A stretch of DNA of 64,000 nucleotides from Sedimentisphaerales bacterium (GCA_963663965.2 CAXXFK010000006.1:160001-224000), one strand, 5' to 3'. Shown: positions 1 to 15,387, counted from the first letter of the stretch. Made by a program: numbers and translations. Notes: generated from the sequence alone by a model not told the origin.

Positions 1-1371
1 TCGAATACCGGTGATCATTGCCGGCGCCGAATAATGAGCCAGGAGGAGGCTTTTGACATTGCGCGGGCTGCCCATGCCGTCATTCATCAGGTCCCAGTTG
101 AGACCATCCATTCGACCATCGGGATGGCAACTGGCGCAACTGAGCCATTTCTGATAGCAGGTGTTGCCGTCATTGAAATATTGTTCACCCAGTCGGGCCA
201 GGCTTGGTTGCTGAGGCTGGCCAAGCAGGAGTTTTTCCGATCTGGGATAGGCTTCAGTCAAATCAAAAGTATCCAGCGATTCAGAAAAATAATTGCCGAC
301 CCAGACACTGTTACCGGCCAGGGCCAGGCTGCGGGGGCCGTTGCCCGTAAGCTGTACTCTTTTACGCAGACCGGCAAGAAAACCAAGGTCGCCGGGAACA
401 TCATCGGCAGAGCTGGAAAAACCGCACGGAACCGCAGCGCCCGCGGCAACGCTGTCCAGCCGCTGATGCAAAGCGGGCCGGTCGATAACGCTGACTTCCA
501 TTGAGCCGCTATGGGTGACACAGAGATAGTTGCCTTCACTGCTGCAGGCAATGGCCCATGGATTGGCCGCGCCGGCATAAACATCATCAAGCAGAACCGT
601 ATTGACTTTTGTGCCATTGGCTATCTTGATAATACTGACAGCGTTATTCCACATCCAGCCACGTTCCAGTTGATTCGTAGGCATCTTGTAACGGCCGATC
701 AAATGAGTGATATAAGCATATATTCCATCTGGAGACACGCAAACGCCTCGACCGCCCGAGGCGCCGTCATAAAGCGGGATGGTATTTATTATAGATCGGG
801 TCGCGGTATTGATAATGGAAACCGTTATACTGGAATAATTATCGTCGGACGGTCCTTCGGGCAGATGGTGCACTACCACCAGCCGGGTTTCATCCGGAGT
901 TAGAGCCAGCGCGATAGGCTCACGGCCAACAGCAATTCTCGCTATTTCCTGGTTAAGGGATAGGTCAATGCAGGAGATACTATTGTCAAAACGGTTGCAG
1001 ACAAAAAGATTCTGGTTATTCAGGACCGGCGACATGGGCGTGTGACCCACCGGGATAATATGGGTGATGCCCTGGCTTGGATCCAGAACGAAGACTGCGC
1101 CGGAACTAACTCCTGCGGTTATATAAACCAGCCCGCTTTCCGACTGGGCGGTGATCCCCAATGGAGACGCCGGCAAGGGAAAGACGCAGGTAATCTGGCG
1201 CGTGTCAGTGGCGTATTCCAATATCTGGCGGCCGGTTTTATCTGCAATATAAAGCGTGTTGGCATCCAAGGTCATGCCTGCAGGGGAAATATAATCATCG
1301 GCCTGAGTTGTGAGTGTCAAGATCATTATATAGATCAGGCTGAGCAATAATGTCCATTGGGTCGGTTTCAT
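1..1371 (-). CDS. Secreted YVTN/YncE-type beta-propeller fused to a c-type cytochrome (cytochrome c peroxidase-like) domain; 3' end runs off the window
   Basis: Not in the ORF track; translated by hand. The frame is open from ATG 1371 (RBS AGGAG) to base 1. Signal peptide MKPTQWTLLLSLIYIMILTLTTQA; propeller blades (IPVGHTPMSP, IAVGREPIALALTPD, GRGVCVSPDG, GAANPWAIA, GNGPRSLAL); then GEQYFNDGNTCYQKWLSCASCHPDGRMDGLNWDLMNDG with a CxxCH motif. Confidence 0.88.
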   Translation of the reverse strand, partial: MKPTQWTLLLSLIYIMILTLTTQADDYISPAGMTLDANTLYIADKTGRQILEYATDTRQITCVFPLPASPLGITAQSESGLVYITAGVSSGAVFVLDPSQGITHIIPVGHTPMSPVLNNQNLFVCNRFDNSISCIDLSLNQEIARIAVGREPIALALTPDETRLVVVHHLPEGPSDDNYSSITVSIINTATRSIINTIPLYDGASGGRGVCVSPDGIYAYITHLIGRYKMPTNQLERGWMWNNAVSIIKIANGTKVNTVLLDDVYAGAANPWAIACSSEGNYLCVTHSGSMEVSVIDRPALHQRLDSVAAGAAVPCGFSSSADDVPGDLGFLAGLRKRVQLTGNGPRSLALAGNSVWVGNYFSESLDTFDLTEAYPRSEKLLLGQPQQPSLARLGEQYFNDGNTCYQKWLSCASCHPDGRMDGLNWDLMNDGMGSPRNVKSLLLAHYSAPAMITGIR

Positions 1372-1425
1372 GGTATTCTCCTTGATATATCACACAATGA
1401 TAATATTTTCAGTTGTTATCCGGTT

Positions 1426-4400
1426 TTATCTATGCCATTCAGGGGCGTACATACTGGTAGCCTCTTCAAAAGTCGGTCTGCGACGAAAATGGGGATCAGA
1501 GGACCAGTAGGAACTGTGTTTGCCGTAATAAGTGGAATAGAACTGATAATTGGTATCCATCCAGCGGCACAGTCTCATCAGTTCGATATCGGTCAGGAGT
1601 TTGTAATGTTGACTGGCGATGTCGGTGGTCAGCATTTTTGGCAGCAGTTTGTTCTTGGAACTGTAACAGCCCAGCGATCTGGGGGGTAGATAGTCTCCAT
1701 TGTCATTGCCGCCGCCCACACCGGGTGTTATGGAGCTGAATTCAGGAATGGCCCGGCCGGCGATTTCCTTTGAAAGCAGCTGCTGATAGGAAATGCTGTA
1801 ATTGTTTGTCAAAGTACCACTGAGGTCCAGGCTGCCGGAAGGAGTGGCACCGCTGTGACAAGTAATACAATTTTTGTCAAAGATGGGCTGAATATCGGTT
1901 GGATAGTGAATAACCTGTTCCGGCCGGCCGTCACCGCCGTTTTCCGCCAGGTCACAGGGTTGGGGCTGGGATTGACTGGGAGAGCGCAGTACTGCCAGGG
2001 GCGCTTCTGTGGGTATGGTTGAAGCGGCTCGTCCCGTTTGTTCATGGCAACCGGTACAAGAACGGATTTCGCCGGGTTTGTAATTTACATAAGTGCGTTC
2101 CCGCTGAATTTCGCGGAAATCTTCATCCAGCGCCTGGAAGAAAATATTCCGGTCGGCAGGGACCATGAAATTGGCTGAACCGTCTGGTTCAACCGGTACC
2201 ACTCCCCATTGCACCCTGGTCCAGAGCGCGGAATACCAGCTATTGCTGGTAAAGTCGTTGGACCAGCGTCGTCCGGTATCCCAGTAACGCGGTATGGCTT
2301 CATTAATTCGCAACCATTTTATCTCGCCGGGCTCCACACCATCCATGCCTTCGTAGACATTGACCATGATACACTGTGCCTGATTCTGTGCCGCGTAAGT
2401 CGGATGTCGGAAGCCATATATAACTGGCGGTTCTGGACGGGGTACCACCGGAGTGGGCTGCCAGCATGAAGTTGTTCCATCGGGATCACGGTAAACATAT
2501 CGGTGTTTGCCGTCCAAGTCGATCAGGAAAATGGAATATGCGCCGGGGATATCGCGATAATGGTTGTTCCAGTTTTGTTTATAGGTGACCAGGATCTGGG
2601 TGGGATTGATTGGATAGGGATAGGAATAGAGAGGGCCGCCTACACCGTCCAAGTGCAGGGTGGAAAAATTATCAAACGAAAAATACCATCCTTCCTGCGC
2701 AGATCCCATCCGGACATCGGGCGTGATGTTGGTCAGACCTGCGGATGACCGATTGTCTTTGTTCAGATCGAATATCTGAATGGGACCCAGCACGTTGCCT
2801 TGGGGATAGTGCTGGGCGCTGACGAAAACAATCCGGCCGTCATTGCCGGGCATTTCCTGCGGGAACATATGTGAGCCGGTATTGTAATAGGAATTGGAAA
2901 TGCCAAAGAGTTCCTGGCTCTTGCTGCCGTCCGGATTCATGGTCCAGATGGTTTTGGGAGTACGATGGCCCTTGTCAATGTATTCCCAGCGGTGGTACAT
3001 CACCCGGCCGTCGGCAAGGACTGTCGGACAGAATTCGCTGACCAGGCTTCTGGACAGCTGTTCCAGTCCGGATCCATCGGGATTCATGCGGTGCAGCACC
3101 GGGGCCACCAGATGGGCCGATCCGCCGCAGAGTATGGTATGTTCGCAACGGCTGGAGGAGAAAATGATGCTGCCGTCGGGCAGATAAGCTGGTTCAACAT
3201 CGTCGGTATGAAAGTTCGAGGCATGGTTCCAGCGGTAGATTTTTTCCGCTTCGTCGACCGGGGGTTGAAGCACCTGCCGCAGGCCGCTGCCGTCCAGATT
3301 GCATTCCCAGATACGAAAGCCGGCGCCGGTATTATCCCGGTAGTCAAAGACGGCTTTTGTCGCGTCAAACGACAGCGTGAATTTATTGATGATTCCTTTG
3401 CCGCTGCCGGGAATATCTGCCGCGGTAATGACCGGCCGTTCCTGTCCGGTGCGGACATTATACAGGTAGAGACCGTTTTCACTGGAAAACACCGATGAAG
3501 GAGTGCCGTTATTGATGTAGGTATAGTAATGGTCAGAACGCAACGGCACATGTTTGTTGAAAATGATTTCGTCGAAGCCCAGTTCATCCGCTGTAACCGG
3601 ATTGGGTTCGGTTTCAAAACTCCACTGTCTGCCGCGGATTTCCTGGCCGTTCATGGTGACATCGACACGCCAGAAATAGCGGGTGTTTTTGGCCAGCGGG
3701 GACGGCGTGGGCAGGCATTCAGCGGTTTCGATGGTTCCCCCAAACCATTTAAAGTTGAGGTATGCCTCGGTTTCCCGCCGTTCCTGATCGGTCAGCGCCC
3801 GGTCATAAATGATAATCTCGGCGATCTGCTGGCCGCCGGAGCGGTAACGGTTACGGTCGCTGCATAGATTACTGGCTTCCACATTACCGGTGGTCACCAG
3901 ACTGATGACCGAATAATTTTCGGGAAGCGGCGTGCCTGAGCCGTTAACAGGGCTGCCGTTGAGCCAGGTTGAACCGTTTTTGATATTGACATGTGTGTAA
4001 GTGGCGTGCCAGATATTGGAAGTTGCCTCGGTTTCCGGTGTGGCCCGGTGAAAATGATAGGTATTGTCATCGCCCAGCAGGAAATTGCCGCCTTTCAATA
4101 CCCAGAACACCGTTCGAATGGCGCTGATGTTCAGATTGGCGCCGTCGGCGTTCATAAACTGCATGGACATGCCGGTATAGTCGCTGAGAGCCGGCCCGAA
4201 ATTGACGATAGACTTGCCATTGATGGTGGCGCCTGGATTGTAGGCCGGTTGTTTGGCGGCATCGGTCTGAACGGCATAGTTGCCGTCACCGGTGACATTA
4301 TCCCAGCGGCTGACTTTCTGGTTGGCGTCTATGGTCAGGGTATCCATATTAGAGGCATCCAGCCAGAATACCGGATTGGCTGCCGGAGAGGCGGTCCCGT

Positions 4401-5169
4401 CGCCGGTGTCCGATACCGCAAATTCGTGGATCAGCTCGAGGTTGTTCGATTCGGTTCCGAAATAAACTTTCTGATGGGTGGTCAGGCTGTGATAATCCCA
4501 TTTCAAGCTGGTTGCGGACGATACCATCGCTGCATTGTCGACCGGTTGAGGATCGAAGGCCGGGACCAGTTCATATTCGTCATAGGTAAGATACTGGCCG
4601 TGAATGACGGCCGGAGTGGTCGAGGTGTCGCCGGGAATATCCCAGGCGACAGCCATGTTGTCGCCTCCGGTGTTTTCCTTGTGCAGAACCTGCAGATAAT
4701 ATTTCTGGCCGGCAACCAAATCAATCGTTGCCGATTTTTGCGAGCTGTATTTATCCCATACATATTGACCTGTCCACCCATAAACAGAAGCGATCTTGAC
4801 CATATTGACTTGTGACTGGTCTGTGCTGAGCCACAGTTCGCCATAATCATCACAGGCCAGCCAAAAGGTATATTGGCCTGTCACAGGAGCAATCAGATAG
4901 CCATACACTATTTCGCCATAGGTTTCGGCCCAGTTCATGGTAACGGTAGAATCGCTCCAGGATACCGCTTCCAGTCGGCTGAGCGTGTCGCGCCCATCTG
5001 GATTCATTGGGAAGTTCGCATTGGAAGTCAGGCTGGTTATATTGACACCGGATATGCCGGTCCACCATGCCCGGCGAATACCGGCGGGATCAGCCTGCAG
5101 GGTGTCATTGATTAGAAAAACTGCCATGCCCAGCGTAAGTAAAACCAGTCTTCTCCTGAGAGTGTTCAT
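1426..5169 (-). CDS. HzsA-like secreted protein: PA14 + LamG-like + Fn3-like + beta-propeller + hydrazine synthase alpha middle-domain-like region, two CxxCH motifs
   Basis: ORF track gives 1426..5184; the RBS GGAG favours ATG 5169. PA14 signature (GYLIAPVTGQYTFWLACDDYGELWLS); propeller motifs (DVEPAYLPDGSIIFSSSR, DGRVMYHRWEYIDK); GVVPVEPDGSANFMVPADRNIFFQALD; heme motifs CTGCH and CITCH. Confidence 0.85.
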   Translation of the reverse strand: MNTLRRRLVLLTLGMAVFLINDTLQADPAGIRRAWWTGISGVNITSLTSNANFPMNPDGRDTLSRLEAVSWSDSTVTMNWAETYGEIVYGYLIAPVTGQYTFWLACDDYGELWLSTDQSQVNMVKIASVYGWTGQYVWDKYSSQKSATIDLVAGQKYYLQVLHKENTGGDNMAVAWDIPGDTSTTPAVIHGQYLTYDEYELVPAFDPQPVDNAAMVSSATSLKWDYHSLTTHQKVYFGTESNNLELIHEFAVSDTGDGTASPAANPVFWLDASNMDTLTIDANQKVSRWDNVTGDGNYAVQTDAAKQPAYNPGATINGKSIVNFGPALSDYTGMSMQFMNADGANLNISAIRTVFWVLKGGNFLLGDDNTYHFHRATPETEATSNIWHATYTHVNIKNGSTWLNGSPVNGSGTPLPENYSVISLVTTGNVEASNLCSDRNRYRSGGQQIAEIIIYDRALTDQERRETEAYLNFKWFGGTIETAECLPTPSPLAKNTRYFWRVDVTMNGQEIRGRQWSFETEPNPVTADELGFDEIIFNKHVPLRSDHYYTYINNGTPSSVFSSENGLYLYNVRTGQERPVITAADIPGSGKGIINKFTLSFDATKAVFDYRDNTGAGFRIWECNLDGSGLRQVLQPPVDEAEKIYRWNHASNFHTDDVEPAYLPDGSIIFSSSRCEHTILCGGSAHLVAPVLHRMNPDGSGLEQLSRSLVSEFCPTVLADGRVMYHRWEYIDKGHRTPKTIWTMNPDGSKSQELFGISNSYYNTGSHMFPQEMPGNDGRIVFVSAQHYPQGNVLGPIQIFDLNKDNRSSAGLTNITPDVRMGSAQEGWYFSFDNFSTLHLDGVGGPLYSYPYPINPTQILVTYKQNWNNHYRDIPGAYSIFLIDLDGKHRYVYRDPDGTTSCWQPTPVVPRPEPPVIYGFRHPTYAAQNQAQCIMVNVYEGMDGVEPGEIKWLRINEAIPRYWDTGRRWSNDFTSNSWYSALWTRVQWGVVPVEPDGSANFMVPADRNIFFQALDEDFREIQRERTYVNYKPGEIRSCTGCHEQTGRAASTIPTEAPLAVLRSPSQSQPQPCDLAENGGDGRPEQVIHYPTDIQPIFDKNCITCHSGATPSGSLDLSGTLTNNYSISYQQLLSKEIAGRAIPEFSSITPGVGGGNDNGDYLPPRSLGCYSSKNKLLPKMLTTDIASQHYKLLTDIELMRLCRWMDTNYQFYSTYYGKHSSYWSSDPHFRRRPTFEEATSMYAPEWHR

Positions 5170-5219
5170 CGCATTCTCCTGCAAACTTATAGAGAGGTAA
5201 AATTGGAGTTCTTTATCGA

Positions 5220-8200
5220 TTACTTATGCCATTCCGGAGCAAACATACTGATCGCTTCTCCAAAAGTCGGCCGCCGTCTGAAATTGGGGTCTGAAGCCCA
5301 GGAATAATGATGTTTGGAGTAATAAGTGCCGTAGAACTGGTAGTTGGTATCCATCCACCGGCATAATCTCATCAATTCCATATCGGTCAGAAGATTGTGA
5401 TGCGGGTTGTCCGGATCATCGGTCAGCATTATGGGCAGCAGCTTATTCTGAGGGCCGTAGCAGCCCAGGCTCTTCGGCGGCAGATAAGCTCCGTTTTCGT
5501 TGCCCCGGTCTCCGCCTTGAATCTGGATGAATTCAGCTATGACTTTGCCGGCGAGCGATTTGGAGGTTAGTTGTTGATAGGAATTATTATAGTATAAAGT
5601 CAGTGTGTCAGAAAGATCTAGGCTGCCGGAAGGGGAGTCGCCGCCGTGACAGGAAACGCATTTGTTATTGAAAATCGGCTGAATGTCGGTTGGGTAATGG
5701 ATCACCTGTTCCGGTCGGCCGTCACCGCCGTTTTCTGTCAGGTCGCATGGCTGGGGTTGGAGCTTGCTTGGAGCCCGGGTCATCGCTATCGGAGTTTCTG
5801 TTCCGATGGAAGAAGGTGTTCGTCCCGATCGTTCATGGCAGCCGACACAGGAGCGGATTTCGCCCGCCCGGTAGTTGACAAAGGTTCTTTCGCGTTGGAT
5901 TTCGCGGAAATCTTTATCGAGCGCCTGGAAGAAAATGTTCCGATTGGCCGGAACCATGAAATTGGCCGAACCGTCGGTTTCGACGGGTACAACGCCCCAT
6001 TGCACGCGCGGCCACAGAGCCGATACCCATCCTGAACTGGATACGGACGGAGACCAGCGGCGTCCCGTATCCCAGTAACGCGGAATGGCTTCATTGATTC
6101 GCAGCCATTTCACTTCGCCGGATTGAATGTTATCCAGGCCTTCATAGACATTGATCACGATACATTGGGCCTGATTCTGGGCCTGGTATACCGGATGGCG
6201 GAAACTGAAGATGGCCGGCGGAGTCTTACGGGGACGCAGCGGGGTTGGATGCCAGCAGGACACCGTGCCGTCGGGATCCTGATAGACATAGCGGTGGTTG
6301 CCCTGCAGGTCGATCAGGTAGATCGCGTAGGCGCCCGGCACATTGCGATAGTGGGCGTTCCAGTCATGTTTGTAGGAAACCAGGATTTGTTCTGGATTAA
6401 CCGGATAGGGATGGTTGTAAAGCGGGCCGCCAACGCCGTCCTGATGCTGAGCGGAAAAATTGTCATAAGAGAAGAACCAGCCCGCTTCAGTGTTCTTCAT
6501 GGAGACATTCGGTGTAATATTGGTCAGCGGCGCCGAGGTGCGGGTATCTTTGTTTAAATCGGCGATCTGGATAGGGCCGACACAGTTGCCCTGCGGGAAG
6601 TGGGGGCCTGTGACAAAAACAATCCGGTTGTCGTTGCCGGGCATTTGCTGGGCGAACATGTGGGCGCCGGTATTCAGGTTCGAATCGGAGAGCCCAAAGA
6701 GCTCCTGGCTTTTGGAGCCGTCCGGATTCATTGACCAGATGGTCTTGCCAACCCGGGCGCCTTTGTCGATATATTCCCAGCGGTGGTACATCACGCGGCC
6801 GTCGTCCATAACTACCGGCGAAAATTCGCAGACCAGGCTCTTGGAAAGCTGTTCCAGATTCTGGCCCTGGGGGTCCATTCGGTAGAGGGCCGGAGAGGAA
6901 AGATGGGCCGAGCCGCCGCATAGAACCGTGTGTTCGCACCGGTTCGAAGAGAAAATGATATCGCCGTCAGGCAGATACGCCGGATCGATGTCATCGATAT
7001 GATAATTGGAGGAGCGATTCCAGCGGTAGATTTTTTCCGCTTCATCTTCAGGTTGCGCCAGGATCTGCCGCAGACCGGTTCCGTCCACATTGCACTCCCA
7101 GATCTTGAAGCCGTCTCCGGCGTGGTCACGGTAATCGAAGATGACTTTTGTGGCGTCGAAAGACAGAGTGAATTTCCCGGGAACACCTTTACCGCTGCCG
7201 GGAATCTGGGCGGCGGTTATGACGGGCCGTTCCTGTCGGGTCCTCAGATTGAAAATGTAGATTCCGTTTTCGGGCTGGAACAGCGAGCTGTTAGTACCGT
7301 TATCAATCACAGTATAGTAATGGTCCGAGGAATAAGGACGCCGTTTGATGAAAATGATTTCATCAAATCCCAGCTCTTCCGCGCTGACAGGCGCCAGTTC
7401 GGTCTGGAAAGACCATTCTTTTCCGATAGCGGTCTGATCGCCTCGCGATAGATCCACACGCCAGTAATAGCGGGTATCAAAGGCCAGTGGTGTCGGGTTG
7501 GGCATTATCTCCGCGGTTTGATAGGCGCCGCCAAACCATTTAAAGCTTAGGTAGGATTCGGTATCCAGCCGTTCCTGTTCGGTCAGGACCCGGTCATAGA
7601 TAATCACTTCGGCCACCTGCTGGCCGCCGGAACGGTATTGGTTACGGTCATTACATAGATTGCTGGCCTCTACATTGCCAGTCGTCACCACGCTGATAAC
7701 CGAATAAGTGTCCGGCAGCGCCGTTGACACGCCGTTGACGACTTGGCCGTTGAGGCATGTAACACCGTTTCTGATAGAGGCGTTTGCATAAGCGCCGCTC
7801 CAGATCGGCGCCGTCGAGCTTACATAAGGATCGCCCCGGTGAAAATGATAGCTGTTGTCATCTCCCAGCAGGAAATTACCCCCCTTAAGCACCCAGAATA
7901 CGGTTCGGATAGTATTGATATTCAGGTTGGTCCCGGCGGCGTTTTTAAACTGTAACCACGGACCGGTATTGTTGGCCAGAGCCGGGCCAAAATCGACAAT
8001 GGCATTGCCGTTAAGACTATCGGCTGCATAAAGGGGCTGCTTGTCGGATATGGTTTGTTCGGCATAGTTGCCGCTGTCTGTGGCGTCATACCAGCGGCTG
8101 ACCTTCTGTTCAGCGTCTTTCACAATCGTGTCTGACTTTGCCGCGTCCAGCCAGAACACTGCATGGGCAGCAGGAGTTCCGCCGCCAGTTCCGCCGCCGT

Positions 8201-9014
8201 TTAAAGGTCTTTCATCAATCAAAGTCAGATTGTCCGATTCCGTCCCAAAATAGACACGCTGATAGCTGGATGAACTGTGCCATGTCCATTTCAGACTGGT
8301 GTTAATTGAAGTCATGACGGCTTGGTTTTCCGGTTCAGGATTAAGCGCCGGGATTGGAGCCGAGCTGGCGCCCAGTTGATGAATGACCAGTCCGGTAACC
8401 TGGGGAGCCTTGCCGTTTGGATCCGATGAAATTGTGCAGGTTATCCCGGTAGCACCGCTAATCGTCGCGGTCAGCAGGGCAAAGGTCATATTTCCTCCGC
8501 CGAAATTATAGTCGATTCCGACCTGAGCGCCGGTGTTGTCAGCCAGTGTAATCAGACCCTCGTCAAATAATATATTCGAGCGCGGTTCATAGTTCATGAA
8601 TTGTAATCGGTAACTCTGGCTGCCGTCGAGGCCCGTAATGGTGACTTTAAGATTCTGGTCGCTGTTAGAAACATAGGCTTCTGTCGGCCAGACCGCCGGG
8701 CCCGAAGTGTTCAAATTATAATATCGAAAGCTGGCACCGCTGCCGGATTCCAGTTTAATGGCCAGGTTATCACCCTGAAAGACCGAACCACTGGTTAGCG
8801 GTTTCCAAGCTGTGAACGGTATGCCATCAAGGGTCGAATTAGCGCTGCCGCCCATATCAACCGCCTCCAGAAGCAGGCCGGTGTTGTCAAGTACCGGTTG
8901 TGAGTTGGATCCGTTGATCAGCGGAGGGGCATCAATTACGCCATGAACAGAAGTTAATAACACAGTCAGGATAAAACAAATGGCGATAATAGTACGATTT
9001 ATGATATTAGTCAT
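5220..9014 (-). CDS. Second HzsA-like secreted protein: unknown N-terminal domain + LamG-like + Fn3-like + beta-propeller + HZS-alpha-like region, two CxxCH motifs
   Basis: 1264 aa with a signal peptide. Co-linear paralogue of 1426..5169 over its C-terminal ~1000 aa. Heme motifs CVGCH and CVSCH. Confidence 0.85.
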   Translation of the reverse strand: MTNIINRTIIAICFILTVLLTSVHGVIDAPPLINGSNSQPVLDNTGLLLEAVDMGGSANSTLDGIPFTAWKPLTSGSVFQGDNLAIKLESGSGASFRYYNLNTSGPAVWPTEAYVSNSDQNLKVTITGLDGSQSYRLQFMNYEPRSNILFDEGLITLADNTGAQVGIDYNFGGGNMTFALLTATISGATGITCTISSDPNGKAPQVTGLVIHQLGASSAPIPALNPEPENQAVMTSINTSLKWTWHSSSSYQRVYFGTESDNLTLIDERPLNGGGTGGGTPAAHAVFWLDAAKSDTIVKDAEQKVSRWYDATDSGNYAEQTISDKQPLYAADSLNGNAIVDFGPALANNTGPWLQFKNAAGTNLNINTIRTVFWVLKGGNFLLGDDNSYHFHRGDPYVSSTAPIWSGAYANASIRNGVTCLNGQVVNGVSTALPDTYSVISVVTTGNVEASNLCNDRNQYRSGGQQVAEVIIYDRVLTEQERLDTESYLSFKWFGGAYQTAEIMPNPTPLAFDTRYYWRVDLSRGDQTAIGKEWSFQTELAPVSAEELGFDEIIFIKRRPYSSDHYYTVIDNGTNSSLFQPENGIYIFNLRTRQERPVITAAQIPGSGKGVPGKFTLSFDATKVIFDYRDHAGDGFKIWECNVDGTGLRQILAQPEDEAEKIYRWNRSSNYHIDDIDPAYLPDGDIIFSSNRCEHTVLCGGSAHLSSPALYRMDPQGQNLEQLSKSLVCEFSPVVMDDGRVMYHRWEYIDKGARVGKTIWSMNPDGSKSQELFGLSDSNLNTGAHMFAQQMPGNDNRIVFVTGPHFPQGNCVGPIQIADLNKDTRTSAPLTNITPNVSMKNTEAGWFFSYDNFSAQHQDGVGGPLYNHPYPVNPEQILVSYKHDWNAHYRNVPGAYAIYLIDLQGNHRYVYQDPDGTVSCWHPTPLRPRKTPPAIFSFRHPVYQAQNQAQCIVINVYEGLDNIQSGEVKWLRINEAIPRYWDTGRRWSPSVSSSGWVSALWPRVQWGVVPVETDGSANFMVPANRNIFFQALDKDFREIQRERTFVNYRAGEIRSCVGCHERSGRTPSSIGTETPIAMTRAPSKLQPQPCDLTENGGDGRPEQVIHYPTDIQPIFNNKCVSCHGGDSPSGSLDLSDTLTLYYNNSYQQLTSKSLAGKVIAEFIQIQGGDRGNENGAYLPPKSLGCYGPQNKLLPIMLTDDPDNPHHNLLTDMELMRLCRWMDTNYQFYGTYYSKHHYSWASDPNFRRRPTFGEAISMFAPEWHK

Positions 9015-9175: not shown

Positions 9176-11308
9176 TCATGGGGTGGCCCATTTCTCCTTG
9201 AGATAATTCTGGACGATGATGCGTTCCGGATCCGTCAGCGGACGATTGAAGATCAGAATTTCCGCGATCTGCTGGCCGCCGGTACGGATATTACCGCGGT
9301 CGCAGCATAGACGGCTGGCTTCCACATTACCGGTTGTAACCAGGCTGATCTGGGAATAGTTGGTGGCAGACAGACGGGTGTTCGTACCATTTACATTCGT
9401 GCTGTTCAGATAGGTCTTGCCGCCGCGGATATTACCCGAAGCATGGGAGCTATGCCAGATATAGCCATCGGGATTAATTTCGGTGGCTCCGCGATGGAAA
9501 TGATAGGCATCGTTGTCACCCAGCAGGAAGTTGCCGCCTTTCATCACCCAGAATACACTGCGGATGTTTTTCAGATCAGTGTCAGCGCCATCCGTATTTT
9601 TGAGCTGCATCCATTTGCCCGACGCGCTGTTGGCGTAGGCCGGGCCGAAATCGACAATACTCTTATCATTCAAACCGTCCGACACATAAGTCGGATTGCC
9701 GGCCGAACCGGCGGTGGCCATATAATAGCCGTTACCGGCCTTGTCATTCCAGCGGCTGACGCCGTTGGCGCCATCGATGGTCATCGTAGACGTGTCCGAG
9801 GCATCCAGCCAAAGCAATAACTCCACCTCGTTCAGAGTACCGGGATCGAACACGATATTCTCTTCGGCGTAATTGTGTTCCAGCCATTTGGCCGCGAACA
9901 GACTCATGTCGGTAAGATCCTCGATACAATCTTCATTGAAATCGTAGGCCAGATTCACATAGGGGACATTGGGATTGTGATGGGCGGCCTCGCAGGCGTC
10001 GGCATAAACGGTGATCTGGATCATATCGGTCTGATTAGGATTGACACCATCCGACCCTACCACCTTGAGCAGGTAAACGCCGGTATGGGTAATAAATACC
10101 CTGGGATTCAAAATGGTACTGTCTTCAAAAGTGACCGGAGGATCGGGAAATTCCGGGAAGTTAGAAGGAATGACTGACCAGGCAATCATTTCATCACCCT
10201 CGACTGGGTAGGCCAGGAAAGGTTTGTCCAGCACCAGCCCCGTTTCGGTTTGGGCCAGCCAGGTGACAATACTGGGACCTGCTTCAACCCGGGCCGGACT
10301 GTTTTGTGATTCGGTCTGGAAAGACCAGATCGCGCCGGTAATGGTGTTGGGATCGGGATTCCCGATAAGTTTGAACTGGGTATCCACTTTCCAGTAATAA
10401 ACCGTATCAAAGTCCAGATCGCCGGCTGGATCGAAAGAGGTTGCGGCATTGAAATCCCGGGTGAACGCACATCCGCTCCCGGCTTCTACTTTAGCCTGGT
10501 TGGGATCCAGGTAGACGCGATACAGGACAGAGTCGGCATCGACCAGTGAACTGCCTGAATCGTCCCACGAGAGAACCTGTTCAACCTTCACCGGGGTAAA
10601 CAGTGGATCATAGACATTGCTTGACAATCCCTGTCTGTCCGCCGGCACAGGTGTGTTGGCGCCGCCGGTTACATCATGGATGACCAGGCCGTCAAGCTGC
10701 GTACTCTTGCCGCTGACGCTGGCCGGCATGATAATGGTGAAACTGGTAGCCCCGTTGACCATGGCGGTCAATAATCCAAAGGCGTCGTTCAGACCTCCGA
10801 AGTTATAATCCACATCCACCGAAGCGCCTGTGCTGTCCTGCAAAGTAACTACCGGCACACTGTATACATGCGCGCCATTGCGACCGTCGTAATTCATATA
10901 CTGAATACGGTAAGCTTTGCCGGCATCGAGACCACTGATAATGGTTGTTATGGGGCCGTCAACATTACCGACATAATTTTCTGATCTCCAGACCGGAGCG
11001 CTGCCCAGGCCGGTATAGGTGCTGAAATTGCCACTGTAGCCATTGGTCACCGTAACGGTCAGATTCATGCCGGTATAAACCGCGCCGCTGGCCGCCGGAC
11101 TCCAGCCGTCAAAAGGAATGCCATCCAGTACGGTATCGGCCGTATCGCCAAAATCGATCGCTTCCAATAATGTACCGTTACTTTGCAGCACGGGTTGGGT
11201 TGCTGTGCCGTTGATAATGGATGCCACCTTGATATCCGCCCGGGCCCCGAGTGACAGGGATAATAGAAGGGTTAAAAACGCAATGATTGCATTCATTCTT
11301 CTTTTCAT
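9176..11308 (-). CDS. Secreted multidomain protein (unknown N-domain, Fn3-like, PKD-like, dockerin-like repeat, C-terminal LamG-like domain)
   Basis: 710 aa with signal peptide; YYWKVD module; YDFNEDCIEDLTDMSLFAAKWL; LWLDASD...FWVMKGGNFLLGD...YHFHRG. Confidence 0.8.
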   Translation of the reverse strand: MKRRMNAIIAFLTLLLSLSLGARADIKVASIINGTATQPVLQSNGTLLEAIDFGDTADTVLDGIPFDGWSPAASGAVYTGMNLTVTVTNGYSGNFSTYTGLGSAPVWRSENYVGNVDGPITTIISGLDAGKAYRIQYMNYDGRNGAHVYSVPVVTLQDSTGASVDVDYNFGGLNDAFGLLTAMVNGATSFTIIMPASVSGKSTQLDGLVIHDVTGGANTPVPADRQGLSSNVYDPLFTPVKVEQVLSWDDSGSSLVDADSVLYRVYLDPNQAKVEAGSGCAFTRDFNAATSFDPAGDLDFDTVYYWKVDTQFKLIGNPDPNTITGAIWSFQTESQNSPARVEAGPSIVTWLAQTETGLVLDKPFLAYPVEGDEMIAWSVIPSNFPEFPDPPVTFEDSTILNPRVFITHTGVYLLKVVGSDGVNPNQTDMIQITVYADACEAAHHNPNVPYVNLAYDFNEDCIEDLTDMSLFAAKWLEHNYAEENIVFDPGTLNEVELLLWLDASDTSTMTIDGANGVSRWNDKAGNGYYMATAGSAGNPTYVSDGLNDKSIVDFGPAYANSASGKWMQLKNTDGADTDLKNIRSVFWVMKGGNFLLGDNDAYHFHRGATEINPDGYIWHSSHASGNIRGGKTYLNSTNVNGTNTRLSATNYSQISLVTTGNVEASRLCCDRGNIRTGGQQIAEILIFNRPLTDPERIIVQNYLKEKWATP

Positions 11309-13428
11309 AATAATATCTCCATATTAGTAAATAAGCTTGATTCGTTAATCAATTGATGTTCTCAGATTGACCGGTTCTCAGGGCGTGCCCCATTTGGCTT
11401 TAAGGTAAGCTTCCACTTCAAGCCGTTCCTGGTCAAACAGAGGACGATTGAAAATCAGAATTTCGGCAATCTGTTGACCACCGCTACGATAAGTACGGTC
11501 ACTGCACAGGCGGCTGGATTCGATATTGCCCACGGTTACCAGACTGATCTGCGAGTAATCTACCGGAAGTCGGGTAGTGGTGCCATCAATCAGTTCGCCA
11601 TTTAAATAGGTGCTGCCGTTGCGGATGTTGCCAGACGAATAACTACCGCTCCAGATATATCCATCCGCTGCGGTTTCGGACACCCCGCGATGAAAATGAT
11701 ACGTGTTATCATCGCCCAGCAGGAAGTTGCCGCCTTTCATCACCCAGAATACCGTACGAATGTTGGAAATATTCAGGTTGCTGTCGTCTGCGGGATTCTT
11801 GAACTGCATCCATTTCGAGCTGGCATTGGCAGTGGCCGGGCCGAAATCGACAATGCCTCTGCTGTTCAGGGCGTCAGCCACATAGAGCGGATTGCCCGCA
11901 GTGCCGCCTGCGATCAGATAATAACCGTTGCCGGACTTGTCATTCCAGCGGGTGACTTCGCCGGTATTGGGATCTATGACCAGTGAAGAGGTGTCCGCGG
12001 CATCCAGCCAGAGGCTCAGGTCTTTTTCTGCAAGGATCGGATTAAAGTATACGTTCTCTTCGAGATAATTATAAGTCAGCCATTCGGTCGCCAGCAAGGT
12101 GAAATCAGACAGGCTTTCAATGCAGTCATTGTCGAAATCAAATTCCAGCTTCTCATAAGGCATTGCCGGATTATTCCGGGCCGCTTCGCAGGCGTTGGCA
12201 TAAACACGGAACTGCATCAGATCCGATTGATCCGGATTTTCACCGTCACTACCCATTACTTTGAGGGTAAAGGTGCCTGTCTGAGTTATGAATACTTTAG
12301 GATGCAAGGCGCCGGAATCGTCGAAAGATACATAATCCGAGGCTGATTCCATAAATCCAGGGATTATACCTGAAACGCACGACCACGCGAACGATTCATC
12401 ACCCTCGACAGGATAAATGAGAGAAGATCGATCCAGCACAATGCCTGTCTGACTGGCTTCCAGCCAGGTGATCAGACTCGGTCCGGCATCAATCATGGCT
12501 GGGTTGTTCAACGGTTTGGTTTTGAATGACCATATCAATCCGGTCAATTCGTTGGGGTCGCTCTGGTCGACAAATTTCAGCTTGACATCCACCCGCCAGT
12601 AATAGGTGGCACCGTTGACCAGGTCGGAGGGGGGATCGAACATTGTATTGGCGGAGTAATCCTGGAAATAAGTACAGTTGGCTGCGCCATCCTGAACTTT
12701 CACGACATTGGGATCGAGATAGAGCCGGTAATTAACCGGGTAGCCCGGATCGATTGCCGTGCTGCTGGGACCGGTCCAGGATACATTTTGAGAGATTTCC
12801 ACTTTATCAAACAGGGGAGAGGTTGGATCGGTAGCCAATCCCTGGCCATCTACCGGAACAGGGTTGGTCGCATATCCGGTGATTTCATGAATAACCAGGC
12901 CATCAAGCTGTGTGCTCTTACCGCTGGAACCAGCCGGCATGATAATCGTAAAACTGGTGGCCCCCGTAACCGTAGCGGTCAATAATCCAAAAGCATCAGC
13001 CAGCCCACCGAAGTTGTAATCCACATCCACTGAAGCGCCCGTACTGTCCTGCAGGGTAACTAACGGCACACTGTACACATACTGGCCATTGCGACCGTCG
13101 TAGTTCATATACTGAATGCGGTAGAGTCGGCCCGCATCGAGGCCACTGATAAGGGTGGTGATCGGACCGTTAGCGTTGCTGACATAATTCTCCGATTTCC
13201 AGACCGGGGCGCTGCCCAGACCGGTATAGGAGCTGAAATTACCCCCATAGCCATTGGTCACCGTCACGGTCAGATTGGCACCGGTATACACATCACCGCT
13301 GATCGCCGGGCTCCAGCCGTCAAAAGGAATGCCGTCCAGTACGGTATCGGCCGTATCGCCAAAATCGATCGCCTCTAATAATGTACCGTTACTTTGCAGC
13401 ACGGGTTGGGTTGCTGTGCCGTTGATAA
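11100..13428. repeat. 118-bp near-identical direct repeat pair (11100-11217 and 13311-13428) inside the two paralogues
   Basis: Manual alignment shows 3 mismatches in 118 bp, all synonymous. Confidence 0.85.
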
Positions 13429-13519
13429 CGGGGGAAACATCGATCGATCCCTGTACGCTGAGAGTTAGTGTCAGCAGTACATAAAACAACATCATCATTG
13501 CACTCATTCTTCTTTTCAT
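11378..13519 (-). CDS. Tandem paralogue of 9176..11308; secreted multidomain LamG-like/dockerin-like protein
   Basis: 713 aa, same domain order and near-identical N-terminal domain; RBS GGAG. Confidence 0.8.
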   Translation of the reverse strand: MKRRMSAMMMLFYVLLTLTLSVQGSIDVSPVINGTATQPVLQSNGTLLEAIDFGDTADTVLDGIPFDGWSPAISGDVYTGANLTVTVTNGYGGNFSSYTGLGSAPVWKSENYVSNANGPITTLISGLDAGRLYRIQYMNYDGRNGQYVYSVPLVTLQDSTGASVDVDYNFGGLADAFGLLTATVTGATSFTIIMPAGSSGKSTQLDGLVIHEITGYATNPVPVDGQGLATDPTSPLFDKVEISQNVSWTGPSSTAIDPGYPVNYRLYLDPNVVKVQDGAANCTYFQDYSANTMFDPPSDLVNGATYYWRVDVKLKFVDQSDPNELTGLIWSFKTKPLNNPAMIDAGPSLITWLEASQTGIVLDRSSLIYPVEGDESFAWSCVSGIIPGFMESASDYVSFDDSGALHPKVFITQTGTFTLKVMGSDGENPDQSDLMQFRVYANACEAARNNPAMPYEKLEFDFDNDCIESLSDFTLLATEWLTYNYLEENVYFNPILAEKDLSLWLDAADTSSLVIDPNTGEVTRWNDKSGNGYYLIAGGTAGNPLYVADALNSRGIVDFGPATANASSKWMQFKNPADDSNLNISNIRTVFWVMKGGNFLLGDDNTYHFHRGVSETAADGYIWSGSYSSGNIRNGSTYLNGELIDGTTTRLPVDYSQISLVTVGNIESSRLCSDRTYRSGGQQIAEILIFNRPLFDQERLEVEAYLKAKWGTP

Positions 13520-13692: not shown

Positions 13693-15387
13693 TTATTCCA
13701 GTTCCAGTCTGGGTTCGGCAAAAAACCCCCAGTCATTGCTGACAGACAGGTCAGAATCGGTGCTGACCAGCGTTAAAAAACGATCTTCTGGTTTTAGTTC
13801 CACCGCTATCTCAAGCAAACCCTGCTCAGGAGTAACATTTTTTATTGACTTCCGCTCCTGGCCATCCACCAGCACCCAGAAATCTTCCTGTGGTTTGAAT
13901 TGATCGTACTTCAAAGCGTCTTCGGTAATGCCGCAACTAGCTCGGAACCGCACAATTTCATATCTGGCCAGCGTTCTGCGGATCGTTTTAAGATCAAAGG
14001 TAATGCCAGCATTGGTATGGAGAGCCAGGGCCGGGTGTTCCCGGGTGCCATAATTCTGGCCGTTTGCAATCAAATTATGAGCATAAATACCGGGCATTTC
14101 ATGCCCGTTATAGATATTTTCATAAAATATCCCGCTGGTATTCGGGCAGTTCTTCCAAAAATGACCGGCGGAACTGACTTGAACAGGACCGTTTTCACCA
14201 TCCGGCGAAAAAACACCATCTACACCTAATATATTGCTGATTTCATGGTACAGATGATCTGACTGAGAATTTAATGGCCCATTTTTACGGGAAAACCTTG
14301 AACCAATCTGACCATTACAGAGGTCTGTCCATTGGTTGAGCTGACCACTGCCATAGCCATCCCCATTCCCATAAATATCTGCAAGATCGATAGATACAGG
14401 GCTACGCCAATAGCGATTCACACCCGAACTCAAATCCCGGATAAACAGGTTTTCCTGGATGGGGATTGGTTTTGTCTTCATTTCTTCCCCATTCATTTCA
14501 ACCGCGTTTCCGGATGTAATTGTTTCAAACTTGCTAGTCTTTTTATTCTGACCGGTTAGCATCATGACTTTACCTTTGAGAACATGCAATTCCAGATTGC
14601 CATTAACTCTCTCCTCCAGACCAAATTCGGTGCCAAGGTCAATGAATTTGGAGCGACTGGTTTTTACCGTGAAACCCCGCGCTTCCACAGGTACGGTTGA
14701 ATAGATTTTTCCGTAAGACAGATACATCGTATCTTCTGACTGTAAAGTCCACTGGGCTGGACCTTCAATCACTACCTGAGCGCCATTGTTAAAATGAATT
14801 TTCGCCAGTCCGGATTTCAAACCATAATGATCCTGAACCATGGCGCCGTTTTCTCGAGGCATTCGCAGGTATGTATCCCATTTTGCTCCAATCTCATCTT
14901 CCAGGCGAGCTACAACCTCACGGGTATGAACCGCCGATTCCCGCATCAACCACCGGTCCAAACCGATCAGTGCTAAACCGAAAAACAAGATAGCGGCCAT
15001 ATTGACCAAACCAAGAAAAACTTGCCTGCGGGTAGGGCGTTTACGCTGCAGTGCGAAATTTTGCTGTAACTCTTTTTCTGATAACTCGTTATTTACCTCC
15101 TGTTTAATGGCCCGTCGTATGACCGAATCGTCCAGATCTTTCTCTACTATATCCATGAAGCCCAGTTTGTCGGTTAACTCCATAGGCAATGACATCACTT
15201 CGGTAATACCACGATTTTTCTTTAACTTGAGATAAGTTGCCAGGAATTCCATGTAGTAATACCGGGCCGCCTTATTGTCGCGTAAAAGGGTTCCCATCTG
15301 CTGCCGTTCTTCTACCGTAATTGATCCATCCAGAGACCGGACTATCCATACGGCCAGGTCATTGCGGTTTACCCTCTGGTCATTCAT
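13693..15387 (-). CDS. FecR-like anti-sigma factor with a C-terminal NPCBM/NEW2-like carbohydrate-binding domain
   Basis: Single TM segment (VFLGLVNMAAILFFGLALIGL); FecR motifs GAQVVIEGPA and GFTVKTSRSKFIDLGTEFG; C-terminal FWVLVDG...RFLTLVSTD...DWGFFAEPRL; overlaps the sigma gene stop. Confidence 0.85.
   Translation of the reverse strand: MNDQRVNRNDLAVWIVRSLDGSITVEERQQMGTLLRDNKAARYYYMEFLATYLKLKKNRGITEVMSLPMELTDKLGFMDIVEKDLDDSVIRRAIKQEVNNELSEKELQQNFALQRKRPTRRQVFLGLVNMAAILFFGLALIGLDRWLMRESAVHTREVVARLEDEIGAKWDTYLRMPRENGAMVQDHYGLKSGLAKIHFNNGAQVVIEGPAQWTLQSEDTMYLSYGKIYSTVPVEARGFTVKTSRSKFIDLGTEFGLEERVNGNLELHVLKGKVMMLTGQNKKTSKFETITSGNAVEMNGEEMKTKPIPIQENLFIRDLSSGVNRYWRSPVSIDLADIYGNGDGYGSGQLNQWTDLCNGQIGSRFSRKNGPLNSQSDHLYHEISNILGVDGVFSPDGENGPVQVSSAGHFWKNCPNTSGIFYENIYNGHEMPGIYAHNLIANGQNYGTREHPALALHTNAGITFDLKTIRRTLARYEIVRFRASCGITEDALKYDQFKPQEDFWVLVDGQERKSIKNVTPEQGLLEIAVELKPEDRFLTLVSTDSDLSVSNDWGFFAEPRLELE

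What the first reader, a model, noticed from the sequence alone, without database searches (positions are those of the whole stretch)
1..9014. Hydrazine-synthase-like heme/beta-propeller gene trio in a glycan-utilisation locus
Seen: three co-oriented secreted proteins separated by ~50 bp. Two have a beta-propeller, a middle domain and two CxxCH motifs (CTGCH ~2044-2058, CITCH ~1855-1869; CVGCH ~5835-5849, CVSCH ~5646-5660). The third, missed by the ORF track, is a YVTN-type propeller fused to a cytochrome c domain (CASCH ~124-138). Established: anammox hydrazine synthase has an alpha subunit (propeller + two c hemes), a beta subunit (propeller) and a gamma subunit (cytochrome c peroxidase/MauG-like), with beta and gamma fused in some genera. 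Inference: this is an alpha + alpha + beta-gamma-like complex in a heterotroph, carrying sugar-binding modules and lying downstream of an ECF sigma with a glycan-sensing anti-sigma. It may be an uncharacterised extracytoplasmic heme redox system acting on or near polysaccharides.
Basis: partly seen in the sequence, partly recalled or inferred. Interest (0 to 1): 0.9.

Follow-up and report, generated by a model that had tools for sequence, protein, structure and literature searches.

The report
Hydrazine-synthase-like haem proteins, glutamate variant
Three neighbouring genes encode exported haem proteins that are true but distant relatives of the anammox enzyme hydrazine synthase; they lack its hydrazine-making residues, belong to an already published family of unknown function, and here look like two interchangeable alpha subunits that dock on one shared beta-gamma partner.

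Summary
Observation confirmed: all five CxxCH motifs are at the stated coordinates. The third gene continues left (695 aa, second CxxCH, dockerin-like tail). Both long proteins are full relatives of hydrazine synthase (HZS) alpha, and the third is a fused beta-gamma relative (Pfam, PDB profiles, Foldseek). They are not HZS: alpha-Tyr591, gamma-Cys165, Asp168 and His144 are missing, and NCBIfam scores are about 6-10% of cut-off. The pairing is in print (2023-2025), and this scan found it at least 11 times on other DNA. A complex is well supported: the two gene types co-occur in 39 of 42 positive genomes, 50 single-chain alpha-beta-gamma fusions exist, and a model scored 0.68 against 0.00 for controls (possibly memorised from 5C2V). 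Best reading: a modular exported haem oxidoreductase, substrate unknown.

The parts
1..1371 (-). 5' part of the fused beta-gamma-like gene (whole gene G000:C6:159284-161371, 695 aa): seven-bladed propeller, di-haem gamma domain, dockerin-like tail
7..24 (-). PAMITG motif: Met452 (99 of 101 homologues) at the Phe position of the peroxidase QFWDG motif; Ile453 where peroxidases have the bridging Trp and HZS-gamma has His144
124..138 (-). CASCH, haem gamma-I motif (residue 412); the second motif CGFCH (residue 521) lies left of the window
649..693 (-). Propeller insertion loop (about residues 227-241, containing PTNQLERGW), same length as the HZS-beta loop; low confidence in the monomer model, in the interface of the complex model
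1426..5169 (-). Alpha-like gene A1 (likely ATG start 5169; longest ORF to 5184): PA14 domain, LamG-like module, six-bladed propeller, HZS_alpha middle domain, two CxxCH
1855..1869 (-). CITCH, haem alpha-II motif of A1; its distal His partner (H1193, equivalent to HZS alpha-His772) is kept
2044..2058 (-). CTGCH, haem alpha-I motif of A1, with no Tyr591 equivalent after it
2092..2106 (-). QRERT motif of A1: Glu1029 where 58 of 64 family members have Met and HZS has Ala
4618..5052 (-). PA14 domain of A1
   Evidence: Pfam PF07691 E 2.4e-10
5220..9014 (-). Alpha-like gene A2 (1264 aa; core 72% identical to A1): unnamed N-terminal module, LamG-like module, propeller, HZS_alpha domain, two CxxCH
5646..5660 (-). 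CVSCH, haem alpha-II motif of A2
5835..5849 (-). CVGCH, haem alpha-I motif of A2
5883..5897 (-). QRERT motif of A2 (Glu1042)
8367..8939 (-). N-terminal module of A2, found in this genome only here and in the two upstream genes; weak Atlas leads to galactose-binding-like and malectin folds (0.89, 0.86)
9176..11308 (-). Secreted 710-aa protein with no Pfam or NCBIfam hit; shares its N-terminal module with A2 and its C-terminal LamG-like module with A1 and A2
11378..13519 (-). Secreted 713-aa paralogue (63% identical) of the gene above, same shared modules
13693..15387 (-). FecR-like anti-sigma candidate; FecR and NPCBM hits both below cut-off
15380..15985 (-). ECF sigma factor, Rhodopirellula/Verrucomicrobium family (TIGR02989, 135 bits, cut-off 124.55)

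Best explanation
An exported c-type haem oxidoreductase built on the HZS scaffold but not making hydrazine. Each alpha protein docks on the beta-gamma protein as in HZS (homology shown; binding supported by genomics and a model, not shown). Beta-gamma is the shared, conserved part, serving electron transfer: haem gamma-II keeps its second His, and haem gamma-I has lost the HZS and peroxidase catalytic residues and may be capped by the near-invariant Met452 (inferred). Alpha is the variable, substrate-selecting part, of which a genome carries many. In the clade to which A1 and A2 belong, Glu replaces the family's Met beside haem alpha-I. I infer that this opens that haem as the catalytic site, with Glu as acid-base, next to invariant propeller residues (Cys686, His792, RWEYxD). 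A1 and A2 arose by local duplication, took on modules shared with neighbouring secreted proteins, and probably act as alternative partners of the dockerin-tagged beta-gamma. Most likely substrate class: a small soluble organic product of the glycans this locus helps degrade, oxidised or reduced outside the cytoplasm. My odds: complex about 0.8; alpha catalytic with beta-gamma as electron module about 0.45; glycan-derived substrate about 0.35.
For: Homology: Pfam HZS_alpha E 1.9e-21 and 2e-19; alpha profile to 5c2v_A E 1.2e-48; beta-gamma to 5c2v_B and 5c2v_C E 4.4e-20 and 9.7e-20; Foldseek top hits 5c2v_A (TM 0.65) and 5c2v_B (TMt 0.88); VIA Z 41.5, rmsd 1.9, 332 aligned, next hit Z 32.4. Partnership: of 151 genomes of the order, 39 have both gene types, 2 alpha only, 1 beta-gamma only, 109 neither. 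Alpha is directly upstream of or fused to beta-gamma in 25 of 40 order-level loci. 50 of 74 long homologues are single-chain fusions, 38 alpha-first and 12 beta-gamma-first, involving several alpha subfamilies. Complex model of A2 with beta-gamma: score 0.68, best of 3 controls 0.00; that mark was reached by 116 of 157 solved and 2 of 215 mismatched pairs; runs share at least 87% of contacts; partner pLDDT at least 85; the beta loop and the residues flanking the haem alpha-I motif are in the interface. Asymmetry: 15 alpha-like loci against 2 beta-gamma in this genome; 1-30 alpha matches against 1-5 beta-gamma matches per genome. Residues: Met 58, Glu 5, Ile 1 of 64 at position 1029; Glu in 120 of 120 best hits to A1; Glu sequences form one clade, FastTree local support 1.0; Met452 in 99 of 101. 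The genome has cytochrome c assembly genes. Local context: a GH29 gene follows co-oriented 189 bp downstream, with GH27, GH43, GH127, GH106 and a second GH29 beyond it on the other strand.
Against: No activity data exist. The Met-for-Phe alignment to a peroxidase rests on a 10.8-bit stretch; a Met there could be simple packing. The Glu clade is usually not near beta-gamma: 4 of 80 metagenome loci, which are two near-duplicate pairs (3 of the 44 loci with at least 2.5 kb downstream), and none of the 50 fusions has the Glu motif. GTDB-wide, alpha is directly upstream in only 13 of 59 beta-gamma loci. The complex model may pass from memory of 5C2V, and only A2 was modelled. In HZS haem alpha-II is not within electron-transfer distance of the other haems (PMC12607021), so a continuous wire is not assured. 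Glycan genes are not significantly enriched beside homologues (8 of 67 versus 6 of 89, p 0.27). Related genomes are not independent observations.
Confidence: 0.45

Rival explanations
1. A two-site channelling enzyme doing nitrogen chemistry on organic amines or amino sugars: as in HZS, one haem makes a reactive small intermediate that travels past the beta loop to the other, and a cytoplasmic tandem Rid-family protein hydrolyses the imine or enamine product.
For: The HZS-beta tunnel loop is kept at full length with near-invariant Gln234 and Trp239. The commonest other neighbour is a tandem Rid/L-PSP (FkbO/Hyg5-like) gene: 16 of 99 loci across several phyla, 15 of them directly downstream of beta-gamma; it also follows this genome's second beta-gamma gene. 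That Rid proteins hydrolyse imines is recalled knowledge.
Against: This locus has no Rid gene. The Rid protein lacks an evident signal peptide while the haem proteins have one (read from sequence). The gamma-I catalytic Cys165/Asp168 segment is deleted.
Confidence: 0.2
2. A detoxifying or respiratory enzyme for peroxide, NO or hydroxylamine outside the cytoplasm of anaerobes; the sugar context is incidental.
For: The gamma domain belongs to the CcP/MauG fold family. The genome has an nrfH/nrfA-like multihaem locus at C21:143981-145979 (named from motif counts and sequence, not from a family scan). No glycan enrichment beside homologues.
Against: The bridging Trp is missing in the family and no conserved Glu aligns with the peroxidase EM motif. 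A detox enzyme does not obviously need up to 30 divergent alpha paralogues.
Confidence: 0.15
3. Not an enzyme for organic substrates: the alphas are a repertoire of ligand-binding or sensing propellers whose haems report to, or exchange electrons with, beta-gamma on the cell surface.
For: If all four haems of typical members are six-coordinate (His/Met and bis-His), none is catalytic (inference). The paralogue expansion and swapped modules (PA14, LamG, F5/8, FGE-sulfatase-like) resemble binding-protein repertoires.
Against: Invariant polar clusters in the propeller (Cys686, His792, RWEYxD) and the clade-wide Met-to-Glu change look like a catalytic site. No signalling output domain or conserved transducer gene was found among neighbours.
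Confidence: 0.12
4. A genuine hydrazine synthase in a new anammox lineage, as proposed for similar genes in PMC10732223 and PMC11828985.
For: All three subunit folds, four haem motifs, the beta loop and the predicted assembly are kept.
Against: Alpha-Tyr591, gamma-Cys165, Asp168 and His144 are absent. NCBIfam HZS models score 54 and 49 of 800, and 121 of 1250. Fifteen divergent alpha loci in a CAZyme-rich genome. No PF13447 match (that search had no working control, completeness 94.6%).
Confidence: 0.02

Closest known systems
Hydrazine synthase HzsA/HzsB/HzsC of Ca. Kuenenia stuttgartiensis (PDB 5C2V); fused HzsBC of Scalindua (NCBIfam NF052342)
   Same: Six-bladed propeller, middle domain and two-haem alpha; seven-bladed propeller with the blade-6 loop; di-haem gamma; second His ligands of haems alpha-II and gamma-II; predicted alpha/beta-gamma contact near haem alpha-I.
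   Different: About 18-24% structural-alignment identity; no Tyr591, Cys303, Cys165, Asp168 or His144; Glu (family: Met) at the Ala569 position; shorter spacing between the alpha haem motifs; extra N-terminal modules and a dockerin-like tail; many alpha paralogues per genome.
Co-located non-anammox HZS alpha and beta-gamma homologues, clade IV of Hagglund et al. 2025 (PMC12758564); hzs-like genes of Suarez et al. 2023 (PMC10732223); 'previously undescribed HzsA' of PMC11828985
   Same: Alpha upstream of a fused two-haem beta-gamma in Planctomycetota including Phycisphaerae; no FG-GAP or ABC-binding-protein genes nearby; HZS catalytic residues missing; function unknown.
   Different: The GBE main text gives its detailed residue comparisons mainly for clades I-III, where gamma keeps a Trp and clade I lacks His772; here Trp is absent and the His is kept. 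In the parts I read I found no mention of the Met/Glu position, of single-chain alpha-beta-gamma fusions, of the alpha-to-beta-gamma excess, or of sugar-type modules. I did not place these proteins in their tree.
Bacterial di-haem cytochrome c peroxidase / MauG / MbnH superfamily (PF03150; PDB 2C1U, 3L4M, 6E1C)
   Same: Di-haem fold and motif spacing; residues at the calcium-site positions kept (Asn438, Thr569, Pro571; their role is recalled).
   Different: No bridging Trp, no conserved distal Glu, His rather than Met or Tyr (recalled ligands) as second ligand of the C-terminal haem, fused to a propeller; much closer to HZS-gamma (E 1.5e-33) than to any peroxidase (E 3.9e-12).

Membership tests
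Anammox hydrazine synthase | Homology and fold of alpha, beta and gamma subunits | tested here: met
   Pfam, PDB profile, Foldseek and VIA hits to 5C2V
Anammox hydrazine synthase | NCBIfam equivalog cut-offs (NF052339, NF052342) | tested here: not met
   54.1 and 48.9 of 800 bits; 121.1 of 1250 bits
Anammox hydrazine synthase | Alpha-Tyr591 as proximal ligand of haem alpha-I | tested here: not met
   No Tyr after the CxxCH motif: gap or Arg in the alignments
Anammox hydrazine synthase | Alpha-Cys303 zinc ligand | tested here: not met
   Aligns to Ser763 of A1 by my count; PMC12758564 notes it is also absent in Scalinduaceae, so it is a weak criterion
Anammox hydrazine synthase | Gamma-Cys165 (third haem link), gamma-Asp168, gamma-His144 | tested here: not met
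   12-residue deletion over Cys165/Asp168; Ile at His144
Anammox hydrazine synthase | Bis-His haems alpha-II and gamma-II | tested here: met
   H1193 aligns with alpha-His772 (58 of 64 and 120 of 120); H594 aligns with the HG of HZS-gamma. Ligation itself not observed
Anammox hydrazine synthase | Blade-6 loop of beta with its Mg-binding Glu | tested here: inconclusive
   Loop kept at the same length; one Glu is Gln234 (100 of 101), the next is kept as Glu/Asp; which Glu binds Mg is recalled
Anammox hydrazine synthase | Anammox genome context (HDH/HAO octahaem set) | tested here: inconclusive
   No PF13447 match but no control rang; four ORFs with 7-9 CxxCH were not identified
Anammox hydrazine synthase | Hydrazine formation | not testable with these tools
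   needs enzyme assay
Non-anammox HZS-like pairs, clade IV (PMC12758564) | Co-located two-haem alpha and fused two-haem beta-gamma without extra N-terminal haems | tested here: met
Non-anammox HZS-like pairs, clade IV (PMC12758564) | No FG-GAP/CRTAC1 or ABC substrate-binding genes in the neighbourhood | tested here: met
   Pfam scans of the flanking genes
Non-anammox HZS-like pairs, clade IV (PMC12758564) | Falls in clade IV of the published trees | not tested
   My tree holds none of their named reference sequences
CcP/MauG di-haem peroxidases | PF03150 domain with two CxxCH | tested here: inconclusive
   24.7 bits, cut-off 25.6, E 4.2e-5; several close homologues pass
CcP/MauG di-haem peroxidases | Inter-haem Trp | tested here: not met
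   Position 453 is Ile, Ala, Ser or Val in the four commonest states among 101 homologues; aligned
CcP/MauG di-haem peroxidases | Distal catalytic Glu (EM motif) | tested here: inconclusive
   No conserved Glu in that stretch, but the alignment to 2C1U is only 10.8 bits
Glycan-utilisation locus component | Glycoside hydrolase genes next to the module at this locus | tested here: met
   GH29, GH27, GH43, GH127, GH106 downstream
Glycan-utilisation locus component | Glycan genes enriched beside homologues | tested here: inconclusive
   8 of 67 versus 6 of 89, p 0.27; small sample, my classification

The most novel reading that the evidence does not exclude
The HZS scaffold is a widespread hub-and-spoke enzyme system of heterotrophic anaerobes: one or a few beta-gamma electron modules serve up to dozens of interchangeable alpha subunits, sometimes fused into one four-haem chain. 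The residue beside haem alpha-I sets the chemistry: Met (closed, electron transfer) in most, Glu (open, acid-base) in this clade, Ala with a Tyr ligand in anammox. This locus would be a version fitted with lectin-like modules and a dockerin tag for redox chemistry on glycan breakdown products, and the family would show the ancestral state from which N-N bond formation evolved.
Probability: 0.3. Interest if true: 0.75.

Novelty: new variant of a known kind. Interest (0 to 1): 0.45.

Why it matters
The origin of hydrazine synthase is an open question, and its non-anammox relatives have no known reaction. This work points to specific testable positions (Met452; Met/Glu1029) and to natural single-chain fusions that would be simpler to express than a multi-subunit complex. 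It also bears on nitrogen-cycle surveys: PMC11828985 counted such genes as anammox potential in ten phyla, whereas one CAZyme-rich genome here has 15 alpha-like loci lacking the catalytic Tyr, so such counts probably overstate anammox. The basic gene pair is already published, which limits surprise.

Tried and rejected
True HZS: rejected on residues and NCBIfam scores. Canonical peroxidase: rejected, no bridging Trp. A conserved glycan-gene partner: none found; the most recurrent neighbours of beta-gamma were Rid (16 of 99 loci), then sulfatase and Gfo/Idh/MocA (8 each), alongside several clusters of 7-8 loci from one group of near-identical rumen genomes; beside Glu-clade alphas no neighbour cluster exceeded 8 of 80 loci. 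Obligate linkage of the Glu clade to beta-gamma: not found. Phylum-wide search with the A2 core at E<=1e-200 hit 3 of 401 genomes, with only 2 candidates scored per genome, so it was not used for distribution. HAO search had no working control. Promoter and terminator scan: 9 and 8 sites against shuffle means of 5.3 and 4.6, nothing conclusive. Sequencing runs: no RNA holder listed. Atlas searches of A2's two modules gave unnamed clusters, a LamG-like lead (0.96; PF13385 on 64% of members) and sub-0.9 leads. Foldseek and VIA lists for beta-gamma were filled by the propeller, so the gamma fold was tested only by sequence profile. Distances from Met452 or Glu1029 to the haem site could not be measured because model coordinates are not provided. 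Dietl et al. 2015 is not held, and searches for its distal residues found nothing. Rows dropped: alpha alignment left out 7 ORFs that were truncated or had another haem-motif spacing; 6 near-identical rumen beta-gamma sequences were left out of alignment A1; 40 of the 60 non-own matches (the strongest) were fetched.
Full report
OBSERVATION. The window is G000:C6:160001-224000. On the minus strand lie A2 (5220-9014, 1264 aa), A1 (1426-5184, 1252 aa; likelier ATG start at 5169) and a gene cut by the window edge. The cut gene is 695 aa with a second motif, CGFCH at residue 521, and a tail resembling a GC-type dockerin (26.2 bits, cut-off 29). The organism is probably a Sedimentisphaerales planctomycete. 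This is inferred from the closest named hit, a Sedimentisphaerales MAG with 62% identity over the whole beta-gamma protein (L002).

HOMOLOGY. Both long proteins pass Pfam HZS_alpha (E 1.9e-21, 2e-19). A profile of 130 alpha cores hits only 5c2v_A strongly (E 1.2e-48; next 8.6e-8). The A2 core model (pLDDT 88.3) matches 5c2v_A best (E 4.9e-30, TM 0.65). The third protein hits HZS-beta (E 4.4e-20) and HZS-gamma (E 9.7e-20), and MbnH only weakly; an archaeal YVTN surface protein scores higher on repeat similarity. Its model (pLDDT 89.6) matches 5c2v_B best by Foldseek (TMt 0.88) and by VIA (Z 41.5, rmsd 1.9, 332 aligned; next Z 32.4). The gamma profile is far closer to HZS-gamma (E 1.5e-33) than to any peroxidase (3.9e-12).

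NOT A HYDRAZINE SYNTHASE. NCBIfam HZS models score 54 and 49 of 800 bits, and 121 of 1250. Tyr591, the haem alpha-I ligand (PMC12607021, passages), has no equivalent. The segment holding gamma-Cys165 and Asp168 is deleted and His144 is Ile. Kept are the second His ligands of haems alpha-II (H1193) and gamma-II (H594), and the blade-6 loop of beta at full length. No HAO-family match was found, but that search had no working control. Cytochrome c assembly genes are present.

DO THEY FORM A COMPLEX? In 151 genomes of the order, beta-gamma was found in 40 and HZS_alpha in 41; 39 have both and 109 neither. Kin are not independent, and two of the 39 carry a fusion. Among the 40 strongest of 60 non-own beta-gamma matches, alpha is directly upstream or fused in 25 (23 of 32 with at least 3 kb upstream). 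GTDB-wide the figure is 13 of 59 (12 of 39). Of 74 long homologues, 50 are single chains with alpha, beta and gamma, 38 alpha-first and 12 beta-gamma-first, from several alpha subfamilies, which implies repeated fusion. A model of A2 residues 551-1075 with beta-gamma residues 27-499 scored 0.68, best of three controls 0.00. That mark was reached by 116 of 157 solved and 2 of 215 mismatched pairs; runs shared at least 87% of contacts, and partner pLDDT was at least 85. The interface includes the beta loop (residues 227-236), which was low-confidence in the monomer, and residues flanking the haem alpha-I motif. Because 5C2V is solved, this pass may come from memory. A1 was not modelled, nor a three-chain assembly.

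MANY ALPHAS, FEW BETA-GAMMAS. This genome has 13 alpha ORFs with both haem motifs, one alpha in pieces (C40) and one cut by a contig end (C21), against two beta-gamma genes. The second beta-gamma has no alpha nearby. Contamination is 5.4%. Across the order, alpha matches per positive genome run from 1 to 30 (median 4) and beta-gamma from 1 to 5; matches are not strict copy numbers. Two or three alphas upstream of one beta-gamma recur (L071, L074, L077, L086, L096). A1 and A2 are sister branches (support 0.93) and 72% identical in the core, so a local duplication. They depart from their clade's consensus at 28 and 24 of 281 conserved columns.

A MET/GLU SWITCH. At A1 position 1029, 58 of 64 alpha cores have Met, 5 Glu and 1 Ile; HZS has Ala569 there. 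All 120 best hits to A1 have Glu, in the motif QRERT or a close variant; these hits were chosen by similarity to A1. The Glu sequences form one clade nested among Met sequences (FastTree, 73 sequences, local support 1.0, midpoint root). The clade also changes the family's His-His pair to His-Phe/Tyr and keeps Cys686 and RWEYxD. I recall from Dietl et al. 2015 that Ala569 lines the distal pocket of haem alpha-I, but could not open that paper. If so, Met would be a sixth ligand in most relatives and Glu would leave an open site with an acid-base residue. In beta-gamma, Met452 is present in 99 of 101 sequences at the Phe position of the peroxidase QFWDG motif, and the Trp is lost. It may cap haem gamma-I. 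Both ligation claims are inference.

RESULTS AGAINST THE SIMPLE PICTURE. Glu-clade alphas lie near beta-gamma in only 4 of 80 metagenome loci (two near-duplicate pairs; 3 of the 44 loci with at least 2.5 kb downstream), and 14 of 80 loci hold more than one alpha ORF. None of the 50 fusions has the Glu motif. The closest relatives (L002, L138, L139) do have a module-bearing Glu alpha directly before a beta-gamma, with the same tail in L002 and L138. So the arrangement is real but specific to a lineage; elsewhere the clade must work in trans or alone.

THE GLYCAN LINK. Locally it is real. A GH29 gene follows 189 bp downstream, with GH27, GH43, GH127, GH106 and another GH29 beyond. An ECF sigma and a FecR-like gene lie upstream. 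A1 has PA14. A1, A2 and the two upstream secreted proteins share a LamG-like module (50-57% identity), and A2 shares its N-terminal module (42-43%) with only those two. It is not general. 109 of the 120 best hits are 900 aa or shorter (search range 688-2191 aa). Nearest neighbours of 40 homologous loci were glycan-related in 8 of 67 cases, against 6 of 89 genes from distant control regions of 15 of the same genomes including this one (Fisher p 0.27; 0.13 if three rhamnosidase pieces count once; my classification after seeing the hits, E<=1e-15). This test is too small to exclude a two-fold enrichment. The most recurrent neighbour is instead a tandem Rid-family gene (16 of 99 loci), which this locus lacks.

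MECHANISM. Best reading (0.45): an exported haem oxidoreductase with beta-gamma as shared electron module and alpha as the variable catalytic subunit, haem alpha-I being open in this clade; a glycan-derived substrate is possible (about 0.35) but not shown. Rivals: HZS-like channelling with amine chemistry and Rid (0.2), peroxide or NO detoxification (0.15), a non-catalytic binding repertoire (0.12), true HZS (0.02). A caution for any electron-wire model is that haem alpha-II in HZS is out of transfer range of the other haems (PMC12607021).

WHAT IS KNOWN. PMC10732223 (passages) reported hzsA-like genes upstream of fused hzsBC-like genes in Phycisphaerae and suggested a broader family with other substrates. 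PMC11828985 (passages and section 10) found 265 hzsA genes in 94 MAGs, predicted heterotrimers and read them as anammox potential. PMC12758564 (abstract, introduction, most of the results, first part of the discussion, term searches) defined four clades of co-located homologues and rejected HZS function. Its clade IV fits this locus by gene content; I did not test it by tree. In those parts, and in paper searches (listings only unless named above), I found no account of the Met/Glu position, single-chain fusions or the alpha excess. I searched the GBE supplement only for three names and did not see its Fig. S7 alignment or the Nature Communications supplements, which may bear on this. Earlier notes of this scan list the same module in at least 11 genomes.

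VERDICT. Real, correctly recognised and already published as a gene pair of unknown function. This copy is a distinct variant: Glu clade, tandem duplication, modules shared within the locus, dockerin-tagged partner. Interest 0.45.

Noticed in passing
P0121-P0194; L092:6154-10692, L095:6250-10695: 50 of 74 long beta-gamma homologues are single-chain alpha-beta-gamma fusions with four (one with five) CxxCH, in both domain orders; some exceed 3000 aa with PKD, LamG, PA14 or FGE-sulfatase-like domains.
   Followed up: partly
G000:C22:59245-62240 (L113); 16 of L002-L100; L193, L194: A tandem Rid/L-PSP (FkbO/Hyg5-like) gene without evident signal peptide often sits directly downstream of beta-gamma across Planctomycetota, Bacteroidota and Armatimonadota.
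   Followed up: partly
G000:C21:1-8236 (L112): A second locus with the same design: two secreted module proteins and a prepilin-type gene upstream of an alpha-like gene (cut by the contig end) that shares its N-terminal module (53% identity) with one of them.
   Followed up: partly
G000:C40:35676-37106 and C22:16861-20270: One alpha paralogue is in several ORF pieces near a transposase-like gene; another appears to lack its 5' end next to a transposase-like ORF.
   Followed up: no
window 16489-18963 (-): 824-aa secreted-looking protein upstream of the sigma factor with no Pfam or NCBIfam hit.
   Followed up: no
G000 C7:147871-150030, C10:276025-278409, C1:329700-331694, C15:288107-290437: Four ORFs with 7-9 CxxCH motifs, not identified; possible electron partners. 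An nrfH/nrfA-like locus (nrfA in two ORFs) lies about 4 kb upstream of the C21:150343 alpha gene.
   Followed up: no
window 41955-64000 (+): A separate run of pectin-type genes (pectate-lyase-like, pectinesterase, two GH28, GDSL esterase, CBM96, LamG/dockerin proteins) beyond transposase remnants at 37430-39260.
   Followed up: no
L023, L025, L028, L029, L031, L034, L041, L053: Rumen Thermoguttaceae beta-gamma genes stand without a nearby alpha and have HE in place of the HG at the gamma-II distal His.
   Followed up: no
L083:7713-10826: A 1037-aa beta-gamma with dockerin, PASTA and CE2_N-like domains, directly after a Glu-type alpha.
   Followed up: no
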